From the sequence record MW481326.1: DNA of 64,000 nt; one strand, written 5' to 3'. The first letter of the stretch is position 1. Each line of letters begins with the position of its first letter. A model generated the notes under the pieces. That model was not told the origin of the DNA. It saw only the letters and a list, made by a program, of their open reading frames with translations, and ran no database searches. Positions 11,947 to 12,079 of this stretch are shown one piece after another. The stretch is from Escherichia phage vB_EcoM-Pr103Blw. The translations under genes were made by a program, and so were the position numbers.

Positions 11947-12079
11947 ACAGAAGACCGTTTACAGCAAAACTTAAACAATCTATTTCTCCGGTAAAGAAAA
12001 GGCGAAGGTTCGATTCCTTCACTCGGCAGATGTCGAGTTGGTGTAATGGTAGCACTTAAGATGATAAACAACGGTCTGG
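11947..12079 (+). ncRNA. stem-loop RNA module 4 with internal permuted tRNA-like domain (T-arm, acceptor hairpin, D-arm); candidate Y-RNA-like (YrlA-like) RNA
   Basis: 8-bp terminal stem AGACCGTT (11952-11959) / AACGGTCT (12070-12077) encloses T-arm GAAGG-TTCGATT-CCTTC, then 7-bp hairpin ACTCGGC-AGAT-GTCGAGT, then D-arm GTGT-AATGGTA-GCAC. Confidence 0.5.

What the first reader, a model, noticed from the sequence alone, without database searches (positions are those of the whole stretch)
11947..12079. Permuted tRNA-like domain: T-arm, closed acceptor hairpin, then D-arm, inside an 8-bp terminal stem
Read 5' to 3': terminal stem strand AGACCGTT, then T-arm GAAGG-TTCGATT-CCTTC, then ACTCGGC-AGAT-GTCGAGT (a 7-bp acceptor-like helix with one G-U, closed by a tetraloop instead of carrying free ends), then TG plus D-arm GTGT-AATGGTA-GCAC, then terminal stem strand AACGGTCT. 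This is a tRNA rotated so its ends sit where the anticodon stem would be, the topology reported for the tRNA-like effector domain of bacterial YrlA Y RNAs. It is not a conventional tRNA gene and tRNA finders would likely miss it.
Basis: partly seen in the sequence, partly recalled or inferred. Interest (0 to 1): 0.85.

Follow-up and report, generated by a model that had tools for sequence, protein, structure and literature searches.

The report
Phage Y-RNA-like permuted tRNA mimic
An unannotated small RNA gene in the tRNA cluster of a FelixO1-like phage folds as a tRNA whose ends have been moved to the anticodon side, and it appears to be the missing RNA partner of the phage's Ro60-like ring protein, one member of a widespread but undescribed phage RNA family.

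Summary
All are kept by compensatory changes in related phages: 96% of cells paired against 69% when shuffled.

The element is one of four RNAs in the array sharing a "handle". The handle is an outer 4-bp helix, a 5'-AGA/3'-G internal loop, a 7-8-bp inner helix, then UWCAGCAA. Only this copy carries the permuted tRNA body. The same handle, with or without a permuted tRNA, recurs beside DUF2828 genes in phages of Klebsiella, Cronobacter and Mycobacterium, and in metagenomic phage contigs (88 hits on the gene strand against 3 on the opposite strand just downstream).

It has the YrlA topology but fails strict YrlA membership: no Rfam RF02553 hit, no conserved GNCGAA motif, and the partner is not a Pfam TROVE protein. 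Verdict: a new variant of the Y RNA/YrlA kind. Protein binding and function are inferred, not shown.

The parts
9546..10961 (+). Gene for a 471-aa DUF2828 + DUF7788 protein, a Ro60 structural homologue (HEAT-repeat ring plus vWA/MIDAS domain). It is the presumed protein partner.
10980..11101 (+). Two sigma-70-like promoters (10980-11008 and 11072-11101) ahead of tRNA-Pro. No + strand terminator follows before the next promoter at 12552-12580. This is the likely start of one tRNA/ncRNA polycistron.
   Evidence: Consensus scan. Consensus matches only, not evidence of function.
11297..11375 (+). M1, a handle-only paralogue (YrlB-like) between tRNA-Glu and tRNA-Met. Outer UGAC/GUCA, AGA bulge, inner AGACCAA/UUGGUCU, UUGCAGCAA.
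   Evidence: Exact match to AGAAGACCNNNWNCAGCA. R1 31.9 bits. Fold.
11464..11533 (+). M2, a handle-only paralogue between tRNA-Met and tRNA-Asn. Outer UUAC/GUAA, inner AGACCGU/ACGGUCU, UUUACAGCAA.
   Evidence: (44.8 bits).
11858..11937 (+). M3 (my U1), a handle-only paralogue directly upstream of the finding. Outer GAGC/GCUC, inner AGACCGA/UUGGUCU, AAUACAGCAA.
   Evidence: z = -2.5. Conserved across genera, with the G-U in the window replaced by A-U elsewhere.
11945..12082 (+). M4, the finding: handle plus circularly permuted tRNA-like body.
   Evidence: (144.7 bits to R1, which was built partly from this sequence).
11945..11967 (+). 5' half of the handle: outer strand UUAC (11945-48), internal loop AGA (11949-51), inner strand AGACCGUU (11952-59), conserved single-stranded UACAGCAA (11960-67).
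   Evidence: Outer helix fully paired in 15 of 15 distinct Ounavirinae contexts with 7 pair combinations, while shifted controls fail. Motif logo from 97 non-redundant modules.
11983..11999 (+). V hairpin UUUCU-CCGGUAA-AGAAA, which looks like a variable arm or an anticodon arm. It has a 7-nt loop. The loop triplet varies freely among relatives: GGU, UAU, AUA, GCU, UCU.
   Evidence: The Rfam tRNA model aligns it as an anticodon arm (22 bits, below GA). It is the weakest helix, with 75% of cells paired. Loop variation seen.
12004..12020 (+). T arm GAAGG-UUCGAUU-CCUUC, with G53-C61, U54, U55, C56 and A58 equivalents.
   Evidence: 100% paired, 3 of 5 pairs covary. Also.
12021..12038 (+). Closed acceptor hairpin ACUCGGC-AGAU-GUCGAGU (7 bp).
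   Evidence: 7 of 7 pairs covary, 98% paired. Relatives carry ACACGU/GCGUGU, ACCCUUC/GAAGGGU, CGCUCCC/GGGAGUG and others.
12039..12055 (+). U8-G9 equivalents and D arm GUGU-AAUGGUA-GCAC, with A14, G18 and G19 equivalents.
12070..12082 (+). 3' half of the handle: inner strand AACGGUCU (12070-77), G (12078), outer strand GUAA (12079-82).
12081..12227 (+). U3, a separate and strongly structured RNA that abuts tRNA-Lys. It has a closing stem of more than 20 bp and an internal hairpin CAGAC-CUUAAGCAA-GUCUG that resembles a minimal handle. Whether it belongs to the system is open.
   Evidence: MFE -49.2 kcal/mol, z = -6.2. Compensatory changes across genera and in L010. No Rfam match.
11722..11798 (+). 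tRNA-Asp(GUC), the conserved upstream neighbour of the gap. The element also follows tRNA-Asp in the divergent contigs L011 and L012.
12229..12304 (+). tRNA-Lys(UUU), the downstream neighbour. RNase P cleavage at its 5' end would set the 3' end of U3.
   Evidence: The processing step is inferred.

Best explanation
The element at 11945-12082 (+) is a phage non-coding RNA of the Y RNA type.

Anatomy. Its 5' and 3' ends pair into a bipartite handle: a 4-bp outer helix, a 5'-AGA/3'-G internal loop, a 7-8-bp inner helix, then single-stranded UACAGCAA. The interior folds as a circularly permuted tRNA body, in the order V hairpin, T arm, closed 7-bp acceptor hairpin, D arm. The nucleotides that make the D-loop/T-loop elbow are present.

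Expression (inferred). It is co-transcribed with the tRNA array from the promoters at about 10980-11101. It is released by the tRNA-processing nucleases that cut the flanking tRNAs.

Partner (inferred). The handle is the binding site for the Ro60-like ring protein encoded at 9546-10961. The same handle on three shorter paralogues (M1-M3) gives that protein alternative RNA partners. This parallels YrlA and YrlB with Rsr in Salmonella.

Effector role (inferred). The tRNA-shaped module presents a tRNA elbow that tethers or decoys a tRNA-recognising host factor. That factor could be an exoribonuclease such as PNPase, as in RYPER, or a processing, modification or defence enzyme. The RNP would then remodel RNA metabolism or blunt host defence during infection.

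What is shown:
- the structure and its conservation
- the permuted topology
- the Ro60 fold of the neighbouring protein
- the tight, strand-specific genomic linkage of handle RNAs with DUF2828 genes across unrelated phages

What is inferred:
- physical binding
- processing
- the effector and the biological role
For: 1. All helices are present and maintained by compensatory change.
3. Four exact copies of AGAAGACCNNNWNCAGCA occur in the window, all on the + strand and all in the tRNA array, and none of the other 27 hits in the window has fewer than 2 mismatches.
4. Linkage. In 94 DUF2828 loci there are 254 handle candidates on the gene strand against 79 on the opposite strand. In the 67 IMG/VR loci binned by position, the three 500-nt bins starting 1000-2000 nt after the gene start, which run from the gene's 3' end to about 1.1 kb downstream, hold 88 against 3. 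All 34 R1 hits in 70 IMG/VR loci are on the gene strand.
5. Handle plus permuted tRNA elements sit beside DUF2828 genes in very different phages:
   - Klebsiella phage FBKp34: 45.3 bits
   - mycobacteriophage LilDestine: 48.6 bits, in a locus with no tRNA genes at all
   - mycobacteriophage CicholasNage: 32.7 bits
   - Cronobacter phage S13
   - metagenomic contigs L011, L012, L034, L081, L091
6. The CicholasNage element matches both my model, handle included, and Rfam YrlA RF02553 at 39.8 bits. That is as good as the bona fide YrlA of TROVE-encoding phage ET08 at 37.4 bits. It bridges the two families.
7. The Levitt 15:48 pair equivalent covaries outside the Felixounavirus group: A:U in 5 elements, G:C in at least 5.
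8. The Bas63 (Felixounavirus) orthologue gp130 has a phenotype: it counters the ppl defence system. Its authors guessed that Y RNAs hide among the tRNAs but did not locate them (PMC11482910).
Against: - There is no direct evidence of transcription, RNA ends, or binding to the protein.
- The window's own sequence has a non-canonical A15/C48 Levitt equivalent. It has C rather than U at the position equivalent to U33 of the V loop.
- The fold energy of the isolated sequence is unremarkable (z = -1.5).
- The YrlA Ro-binding motif GNCGAAN0-1G is not conserved, and Rfam YrlA gives no hit.
- DUF2828 aligns to a TROVE Ro only over the MIDAS motif at sequence level. Transferring 'binds a Y RNA stem' therefore rests on fold similarity and synteny.
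- A natural Felixounavirus, SP116, has deleted the 3' half of the element, so it is not essential.
- The CM alignment used for pair counts is fitted to the proposed structure. Many of its sequences are related, which inflates the counts.
Confidence: 0.7

Rival explanations
1. It is a genuine circularly permuted tRNA gene. RNase P opens the acceptor hairpin 5' of G12032. The new 3' end is trimmed and receives CCA. The result is a two-piece, possibly aminoacylatable tRNA-shaped molecule held together by the handle, analogous to two-piece tmRNA or to M. smegmatis YrlA. This could coexist with protein binding.
For: - The acceptor stem is exactly 7 bp and stacks on a 5-bp T stem, which is the RNase P determinant cited for M. 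smegmatis YrlA (PMC4201824).
- In 7 of 18 permuted family members the acceptor 3' strand is followed directly by NCCA inside the 'loop': Mijalis GCCA, L011 ACCA, L034 twice, L091, L081, S13. About 1 in 64 would be expected by chance.
- Non-permuted relatives exist with open, CCA-ended acceptor stems and the handle in place of, or next to, the anticodon loop. These are the Klebsiella phage 114-nt 'tRNA-Asp(GUC)' and the Cronobacter phage S13 121- and 113-nt RNAs, which score 56.9 and 40.9 bits to Rfam tRNA.
- All tRNAs of this array encode CCA.
- The array lacks a recognised tRNA-Trp.
Against: - The window's loop is AGAU with no CCA. The Sf14, SUSP1 and ESh21 versions have a 6-bp stem closed by a UACG tetraloop.
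- The triplet in the V loop changes freely between close relatives (GGU, UAU, AUA, GCU, UCU), and the window has C at the U33 position. Decoding identity is therefore not conserved.
- No BHB motif or splicing endonuclease route exists in bacteria to restore a continuous anticodon arm.
- Encoded CCA could be a relic of origin from a tRNA-tRNA junction (model in bioRxiv 10.1101/312249).
Confidence: 0.15
2. It is a cis-acting structural or punctuation element of the tRNA polycistron with no dedicated protein partner. It would be a tRNA-like processing signal, or a spacer that guides RNase P, RNase E or RNase III, or that stabilises neighbouring tRNAs.
For: It lies inside a tRNA array with no promoter or terminator of its own. 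tRNA-like structures are known processing signals, for example mascRNA (cited in bioRxiv 10.1101/312249). Handle RNAs sit precisely in inter-tRNA gaps.
Against: - The handle family follows the DUF2828 gene, not tRNAs. Mycobacteriophage LilDestine has three tandem handle RNAs right after the Ro-like gene and no tRNA in 11 kb.
- A conserved single-stranded octamer and a conserved asymmetric internal loop are not needed for RNase P or RNase Z recognition.
- Most inter-tRNA gaps in the same array are 5-10 nt and need no such element.
Confidence: 0.1
3. It is a decaying relic of a tandem tRNA duplication or rearrangement (3' half of one tRNA plus 5' half of the next) with no present function.
For: Chen et al. 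warn that tRNA dimers can mimic YrlA in searches. T-arm to T-arm recombination does happen in this array: phage SP116 fused the element's T arm to that of tRNA-Lys.
Against: The two acceptor strands come from 'different' tRNAs in that scenario, yet they stay complementary through at least 6 different sequence combinations. The same architecture with the same handle is kept in phages of Proteobacteria and Actinobacteria whose DUF2828 proteins share only 31-51% identity.
Confidence: 0.03
4. The region encodes a small protein: the 85-aa ORF on the minus strand (11919-12176) or the 58-aa ORF on the plus strand (11883-12059), as annotated 'hypothetical protein' in some GenBank records.
For: The 85-aa ORF matches phrog_14433 over its full length. 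Several Felixounavirus records annotate hypothetical proteins here.
Against: The PHROG only reflects repeated annotation of near-identical phages. In Mooglevirus Sf14 the homologous reading frame is split into 49-aa and 32-aa pieces in different frames, exactly where the hairpin loops have 2-nt and 4-nt indels. Substitutions follow base-pairing rules, not codon structure. The + strand ORF has no family.
Confidence: 0.02

Closest known systems
[quoted passage not shown] 2014, PMC4201824; Rfam RF02553; structure PDB 6CU1, bioRxiv 10.1101/312249)
   Same: - Modular RNA: a 5'/3' stem for a Ro60-type ring protein plus an effector module that is a circularly permuted tRNA (optional V, then T, closed acceptor stem, D).
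- Encoded within 4 kb of the Ro-type gene and on the same strand.
- Accompanied by smaller paralogues that share only the protein-binding module (YrlB).
- Often next to tRNA genes.
- A YUAY-like element precedes V (CUAU at 11980-83).
   Different: - No hit to RF02553 even at E<=10.
- The GNCGAAN0-1G motif is replaced by a different conserved handle: 5'-ARA/3'-G internal loop plus UWCAGCAA.
- The closing stem is short (4+7-8 bp) instead of the long stem seen in ET08 YrlA.
- The partner is Pfam DUF2828/DUF7788, not TROVE+vWA_Ro60.
- There are four handle RNAs, interspersed within a 26-tRNA array.
Mycobacterium smegmatis YrlA (RNase P-cleaved, CCA-added form)
   Same: It has a 7-bp acceptor stem, as here, and is cut by RNase P and CCA-tailed in vivo (PMC4201824). 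Several relatives of the window element even encode NCCA at the corresponding place.
   Different: Cleavage has not been tested here. The window copy has no encoded CCA.
Thermus phage phiLo Ro60 with Yrl1/Yrl2 (PMC12135203; PDB 9KOP, 9L5Y)
   Different: - phiLo Ro60 is annotated as a TROVE domain-containing protein in its PDB entry.
- Its RNAs were picked by a CGAA motif.
- They lie upstream of the gene.
- They were selected for canonical Y RNA features (5'-3' stem, bulge, CGAA motif); no tRNA-like domain is mentioned in the passages I read.
Circularly permuted tRNA genes of Cyanidioschyzon merolae and some archaea
   Same: The gene order is 3' half, linker, 5' half. The acceptor stem is initially closed. 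The ends pair where the anticodon stem lies.
   Different: Those precursors use a bulge-helix-bulge motif, a splicing endonuclease and a ligase to circularise, and they yield canonical decoding tRNAs. No such machinery or conserved anticodon is seen here.
Two-piece tmRNA from permuted ssrA genes
   Same: A permuted tRNA-like domain whose acceptor 3' strand precedes the 5' strand in the gene.
   Different: There is no G3-U70 alanine identity pair, no tag reading frame and no pseudoknots. ARAGORN finds no tmRNA.

Membership tests
YrlA (Rfam RF02553 / Chen et al. 2014) | Matches the curated covariance model RF02553 (gathering score 69 bits). | tested here: not met
   No YrlA match at E<=10 in 11790-12240. 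Positive control: the bona fide ET08 YrlA reaches only 37.4 bits, so the model is narrow. A DUF2828-linked relative, CicholasNage, reaches 39.8 bits.
YrlA (Rfam RF02553 / Chen et al. 2014) | tRNA-like domain with the T stem-loop 5' of a closed acceptor-like stem-loop and then the D stem-loop, all inside a stem formed by the RNA ends. | tested here: met
YrlA (Rfam RF02553 / Chen et al. 2014) | GNCGAAN0-1G motif near the 5' end (presumed Ro60 contact). | tested here: not met
   M4 has GACCGUUU. M3 has GACCGAAU in the window but GACCAAAU in other genera. The family logo shows UWCAGCAA instead. ET08 YrlA and its YrlB-like neighbour do carry GCCGAG and GCCGAAGG.
YrlA (Rfam RF02553 / Chen et al. 2014) | Encoded within about 4 kb of a Ro60 orthologue, on the same strand. 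| tested here: inconclusive
   The element starts 984 nt downstream of the gene, on the same strand. The protein is Ro60-like by fold but is not a Pfam TROVE protein, and orthology is not established.
YrlA (Rfam RF02553 / Chen et al. 2014) | tRNA tertiary-interaction nucleotides, including a covarying Levitt 15:48 pair. | tested here: inconclusive
   U8, A14, G18, G19, U54, U55, C56, A58 and G53-C61 equivalents are present. The 15:48 pair covaries in the wider family (A:U in 5, G:C in at least 5), but it is A/C in the window and A/A in the sister genera.
YrlA (Rfam RF02553 / Chen et al. 2014) | Bound by the Ro60 protein. Carries pseudouridine 55 and dihydrouridine made by TruB and DusA. | not testable with these tools
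   Needs RIP or EMSA and modification mapping.
Canonical tRNA gene | Contiguous cloverleaf with an open acceptor stem. Detected by ARAGORN or Rfam RF00005 at gathering score. | tested here: not met
   Not called by ARAGORN. The best RF00005 alignment covers only the V-plus-T part at 22 bits, against a GA of 29.
Circularly permuted tRNA gene (C. merolae type) | Bulge-helix-bulge motif at the junction, and a conserved anticodon giving a decoding tRNA after circularisation. | tested here: not met
   The junction is a bipartite helix with a 3-nt/1-nt internal loop, not a 3-4-3 BHB. The loop triplet is not conserved.
Two-piece (permuted) tmRNA | G3-U70 pair, encoded or added CCA, tag ORF with resume codon, pseudoknots. 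| tested here: not met
   Acceptor pair 3:70 is C-G. ARAGORN reports no tmRNA. No Rfam tmRNA hit on the element.
Ro60 / TROVE protein family (for the neighbouring gene) | HEAT-repeat ring plus C-terminal vWA domain with MIDAS motif (fold). | tested here: met
Ro60 / TROVE protein family (for the neighbouring gene) | Sequence membership in Pfam TROVE (PF05731) and vWA_Ro60 (PF25045). | tested here: not met
   Only PF11443 and PF25043 hit. No PDB sequence hit by sequence or profile. ET08 gp220 does hit TROVE and vWA_Ro60.

The most novel reading that the evidence does not exclude
DUF2828 Ro60-like proteins and 'handle' RNAs form a second, phage-wide Ro/Y-type RNP system that has not been described.

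Its RNAs share a bulged helix plus the UWCAGCAA handle and come in three interconvertible forms:
- handle only
- handle plus circularly permuted tRNA
- otherwise canonical, CCA-ended tRNAs in which the handle replaces or adjoins the anticodon loop

The ring protein would therefore be tethered to real tRNA-shaped, possibly RNase P-processed and CCA-tailed molecules. Phages would use this to capture or decoy a tRNA-recognising host enzyme or defence nuclease. This would explain why the Bas63 orthologue counters the ppl defence system.
Probability: 0.4. Interest if true: 0.8.

Novelty: new variant of a known kind. Interest (0 to 1): 0.62.

Why it matters
Ro60 and its Y RNAs are conserved from bacteria to humans, but what the tRNA-like module of bacterial Y RNAs recruits is still unknown.

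This locus gives a tractable E. coli phage model. The protein already has a phenotype: Bas63 gp130 counters the ppl defence system. The authors of that work could only guess that Y RNAs hide among the tRNAs. The present analysis pinpoints four candidate RNAs and defines a new conserved protein-binding handle. It also shows that the same handle marks roughly a hundred non-redundant RNAs next to DUF2828 genes in unrelated phages.

Three consequences follow:
- It makes the tether, gate or decoy question directly testable by genetics and RIP.
- It corrects mis-annotations ('tRNA-Thr', 'hypothetical protein').
- The co-existing permuted and non-permuted forms offer a natural series for asking how Y RNAs evolved from tRNAs.

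Tried and rejected
- Rfam at gathering score and at E<=10 gave no family for the element beyond a partial tRNA match.
- PDB sequence searches with the protein and with its profile found nothing. Only fold comparison worked.
- hhalign of the DUF2828 profile against ET08 Ro aligned only the MIDAS motif.
- I first read the 11983-99 hairpin as an anticodon arm of a complete permuted tRNA, possibly the missing tRNA-Trp. I dropped this because the loop triplet varies freely and the window has C at the U33 position.
- A 5-bp helix CUUAA/UUAAG (11970-74 with 12056-60) from the MFE fold is not conserved in sister genera, so I left it out. A shorter AUCU/AGAU or equivalent helix at the base of the tRNA body looked plausible by eye but was not tested rigorously.
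- The first 50 kb of phage ET08 contained neither Ro nor YrlA. The right region was at 128 kb.
- Two reviews on bacterial Y RNAs (PMC10870794, PMC6047535) and the supplements of Chen et al. 2014 are not held. I therefore could not check the list of 22 phages searched in 2014.
- Full-text searches for 'DUF2828', and for 'Ro-like' combined with 'tRNA-like', found nothing describing these RNAs.
- The generic handle scan has an appreciable background (79 opposite-strand hits per about 1 Mb). Single hits such as 14479-14687 inside an ORF are not trusted.
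Full report
**Where we are.** The window is a Felixounavirus (FelixO1-like myovirus), about 98% identical to E. coli O157 typing phage 1 over the region. ARAGORN finds 26 tRNA genes on the + strand between 11128 and 16353, none for Trp. Rfam at gathering score finds only tRNAs. The finding lies in a 430-nt unannotated gap between tRNA-Asp (11722-11798) and tRNA-Lys (12229-12304). That gap is conserved in Felixounavirus, Mooglevirus and Suspvirus.

**The observation.**
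- inner closing stem AGACCGUU 11952-59 with AACGGUCU 12070-77
- T arm 12004-20
- closed 7-bp acceptor hairpin ACUCGGC-AGAU-GUCGAGU 12021-38
- U-G 12039-40
- D arm GUGU-AAUGGUA-GCAC 12041-55

The MFE fold reproduces them, but the energy is not unusual (z = -1.5). The case therefore rests on comparison with relatives.

- Across genera the acceptor hairpin changes from ACUCGGC/GUCGAGU to ACACGU/GCGUGU, ACCCUUC/GAAGGGU, CGCUCCC/GGGAGUG and others while staying paired.
- I built a covariance model from five Ounavirinae sequences and used it to align 28 family members. In that alignment 96.4% of cells pair, against 69.2% after shuffling and 30-47% after sliding partners. 23 of 28 pairs have changes on both sides. 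The closing stem, T arm and D arm are 100% paired and the acceptor hairpin 98%.
- That alignment is fitted to the structure, so I also ran RNAalifold on a plain MAFFT alignment of 12 diverse members. It independently predicts the T, acceptor and D helices, with 12 of 16 pairs compensatory.

1. A hairpin UUUCU-CCGGUAA-AGAAA (11983-99) precedes the T arm by four nucleotides. Rfam's tRNA model aligns it as an anticodon arm (22 bits, below threshold). In YrlA nomenclature it is the V stem-loop (PMC4201824). It is the least conserved helix (75% paired). Its loop triplet varies freely: GGU, UAU, AUA, GCU, UCU.
2. Immediately 3' of the 5' strand lies a conserved single-stranded UACAGCAA (11960-67).
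3. The closing stem is bipartite. An outer 4-bp helix (UUAC 11945-48 with GUAA 12079-82) is separated from the inner helix by a 5'-AGA/3'-G internal loop. In all 15 distinct Ounavirinae contexts the outer helix is fully paired, with seven different pair combinations, and shifted controls fail.
4. The motif AGAAGACCNNNWNCAGCA occurs four times without mismatch in the window, all on the + strand and all between tRNAs. None of the other 27 hits in the window has fewer than 2 mismatches. The copies are M1 11297-11375, M2 11464-11533, M3 11858-11937 and M4, the finding. M1-M3 are 70-80-nt RNAs with the same handle but no tRNA body.

**The neighbouring protein.** The 471-aa ORF at 9546-10961 ends 984 nt upstream of M4 on the same strand.
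- It carries Pfam DUF2828 and DUF7788. RefSeq and PHROGs call it 'RNA-binding protein'.
- Sequence searches against PDB find nothing.
- At sequence-profile level only the vWA MIDAS motif aligns to a true TROVE Ro.
- Homologues occur in 709 phage records. In mycobacteriophages they are annotated 'Ro-like RNA binding protein'.

**Linkage of handle RNAs to DUF2828 genes.** I fetched DUF2828 loci from GenBank phages and IMG/VR.
- The covariance model finds full-length handle-plus-permuted-tRNA elements beside the gene in many of them:
  - divergent Ounavirinae-like contigs: L012 79.5 bits, L011 64.8 bits, again right after tRNA-Asp
  - Klebsiella phage FBKp34: 45.3 bits
  - mycobacteriophages LilDestine (48.6 bits) and CicholasNage (32.7 bits)
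  - metagenomic contigs L081, L034 (four tandem copies) and L091
  - Cronobacter phage S13, recognised by eye
- All 34 hits in 70 IMG/VR loci are on the gene strand.
- A simple handle detector (a stem of at least 7 bp, a 1-3-nt gap, then CAGCA) gives 254 hits on the gene strand against 79 on the other strand in 94 loci.
- In the 67 IMG/VR loci binned by position, the three 500-nt bins starting 1000-2000 nt after the gene start, which run from the gene's 3' end to about 1.1 kb downstream, hold 88 hits against 3.
- The 97 non-redundant modules give the logo A-A-G-R-N5-U-W-CAGCA-A, then the 3' strand followed by G. Lengths are bimodal, 50-70 nt and 100-135 nt.
- LilDestine has three tandem handle RNAs, the middle one with the tRNA body, directly after the Ro-like gene. 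It has no tRNA gene in the 11-kb locus. The association is therefore with the protein, not with tRNA arrays.

**tRNA likeness.** The window element has equivalents of U8, A14, G18, G19, G53-C61, U54, U55, C56 and A58. The Levitt 15:48 equivalent covaries in the wider family (A:U in five elements, G:C in at least five). It is A/C in the window and A/A in the sister genera.

The acceptor stem is exactly 7 bp. In 7 of 18 permuted relatives the acceptor 3' strand is followed directly by NCCA inside the 'loop'. This is far above the 1/64 chance rate. It means either that those hairpins are opened to give tRNA-like ends, as shown for M. smegmatis YrlA (PMC4201824), or that they retain the scar of an origin from tRNA-tRNA junctions (model in bioRxiv 10.1101/312249). 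The window copy has AGAU and no CCA.

**Circular-permutation relatives.** Klebsiella phage FBKp34 has a 114-nt 'tRNA-Asp(GUC)' with an open, CCA-ended acceptor stem. A closed hairpin AACUUC-UUAGA-GAAGUU followed by UUACAGCA is inserted between its D arm and anticodon arm. Cronobacter phage S13 has two such RNAs, scoring 56.9 and 40.9 bits to Rfam tRNA, with 55- and 52-nt insertions in place of the anticodon loop. It also has one permuted form. The same parts in the same circular order thus occur with either the handle or the acceptor stem carrying the free ends.

**Comparison with bona fide YrlA.**
- Rfam has a YrlA model (RF02553, GA 69). It gives no hit on the window at E<=10.
- As a control I located the published YrlA of mycobacteriophage ET08, upstream of its true TROVE Ro gp220 (PF05731 plus PF25045).
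- RF02553 scores it only 37.4 bits, over the T-AS-D core.
- My model matches only its V-T-AS-D core (17.7 bits) and not its stem.
- ET08 YrlA has a long closing stem and the GCCGAG/GCCGAAGG motif. The window family has neither.
- The DUF2828-linked CicholasNage element scores 39.8 bits to RF02553 over its full length, and also matches my model including the handle. The two families therefore grade into each other.

**Expression context.** Two sigma-70-like promoters (10980-11008, 11072-11101) precede tRNA-Pro. The next promoter is at 12552-80, and no + strand terminator lies between. M1-M4 are therefore probably made as part of a tRNA polycistron and released by tRNA-processing enzymes. This step is inferred.

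**Coding rival.** The 85-aa minus-strand ORF matches a PHROG of unknown function. In Sf14 the frame is broken into pieces in different frames at the hairpin-loop indels. The PHROG reflects repeated annotation, not a gene.

**Literature.**
- Phage Ro60 with Y-like RNAs has been characterised for Thermus phage phiLo (PMC12135203).
- For Felixounavirus, the PhageMaP preprint shows that Bas63 gp130, the orthologue of the window protein, counters the ppl defence system. [quoted passage not shown] Bas63 carries this gap at 96% identity, annotated as hypothetical proteins (H98).
- I found no paper describing the handle motif or DUF2828-linked RNAs.

**Verdict.** Strict membership in YrlA fails on the model, the motif and the protein family. 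I therefore class it as a new variant of a known kind: a Y-RNA-like permuted tRNA mimic with a distinct handle, partnered (by inference) with a DUF2828 Ro60-like protein. It is one of four handle RNAs in this phage and one of a large phage-wide family. Binding, processing and the effector remain to be shown. A natural deletion in phage SP116 shows the element is dispensable, which fits an accessory, conflict-related role.

Noticed in passing
window 12081-12227 (+): U3 is a 147-nt, very stable RNA (MFE -49.2 kcal/mol, z = -6.2) between the finding and tRNA-Lys. Its closing stem of more than 20 bp shows compensatory changes across genera. An internal hairpin CAGAC-CUUAAGCAA-GUCUG covaries (CAAACC/GGUUUG in Sf14, CAGUC/GACUG in L010) and looks like a minimal handle. 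No Rfam match. Its first bases overlap the outer helix of M4.
   Followed up: partly
window 12594-12782 (+): Weak Rfam tmRNA match (17.4 bits, E 8e-5, model positions 56-294) in the 246-nt gap after the strongest promoter-like site of the region (12552-12580, 11/12 consensus). This is possibly another unannotated structured RNA.
   Followed up: no
window 13004-13086 (+): Unannotated tRNA-like sequence: GGGACG.../...CGUCCC acceptor, T arm GGGG-UUCAACU-CCUC, ending AUGCCA. It has a 9-nt loop CCUCCAAAA containing CCA, and a weak tRNA-Sec match (23 bits). It could be an aberrant tRNA-Trp, the one amino acid missing from the 26 called tRNAs.
   Followed up: partly
window 14479-14687 (+): Handle-like arrangement AGAGCCAUU-UGCAGCAA ... 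GAUGGCUCU-GG inside the DUF7338 ORF (14435-14992). It may be chance, because the detector has a real background.
   Followed up: no
L007 7003-7116 (Klebsiella phage FBKp34); L014 7896-8016 and 8026-8138 (Cronobacter phage S13): Oversized, CCA-ended tRNAs annotated tRNA-Asp, tRNA-Ser and tRNA-OTHER. They carry a closed handle hairpin plus UWCAGCA between the D arm and the anticodon region. They are non-permuted counterparts of the finding and possibly protein-tagged real tRNAs.
   Followed up: partly
L022 7455-7545 (Salmonella phage SP116): Natural deletion. The T arm of the element is fused to the T arm and 3' end of tRNA-Lys. This removes the element's acceptor and D arms, U3 and most of tRNA-Lys(UUU). 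It shows T-arm to T-arm recombination within tRNA arrays, and that the element is dispensable.
   Followed up: partly
L006 400-530 (phage REP6) and several Felixounavirus GenBank records: The region is mis-annotated as a 131-nt 'tRNA-Thr (GGT)' or as one or two hypothetical proteins. phrog_14433 appears to be built from such calls on the minus strand.
   Followed up: yes
window 11799-11857 (+): Conserved hairpins directly after tRNA-Asp: GGCUAUUUAGCC and a long CUCCCUUUAAAGA...UCUUUAAAGGAG stem-loop. They precede M3. Function unknown. They are not followed by a U-run.
   Followed up: no
L009 (Listeria phage A511), L016 (Aeromonas phage LAh_6), L014 (Cronobacter phage S13), L097/L098 (ET08): Ro-like genes in other phages sit near RNA repair and tRNA maturation genes (RtcB 'tRNA splicing ligase', RNA ligases, polynucleotide kinase, tRNA nucleotidyltransferase). 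This hints at a link to RNA damage and repair conflicts. I did not check whether the window phage encodes any.
   Followed up: no
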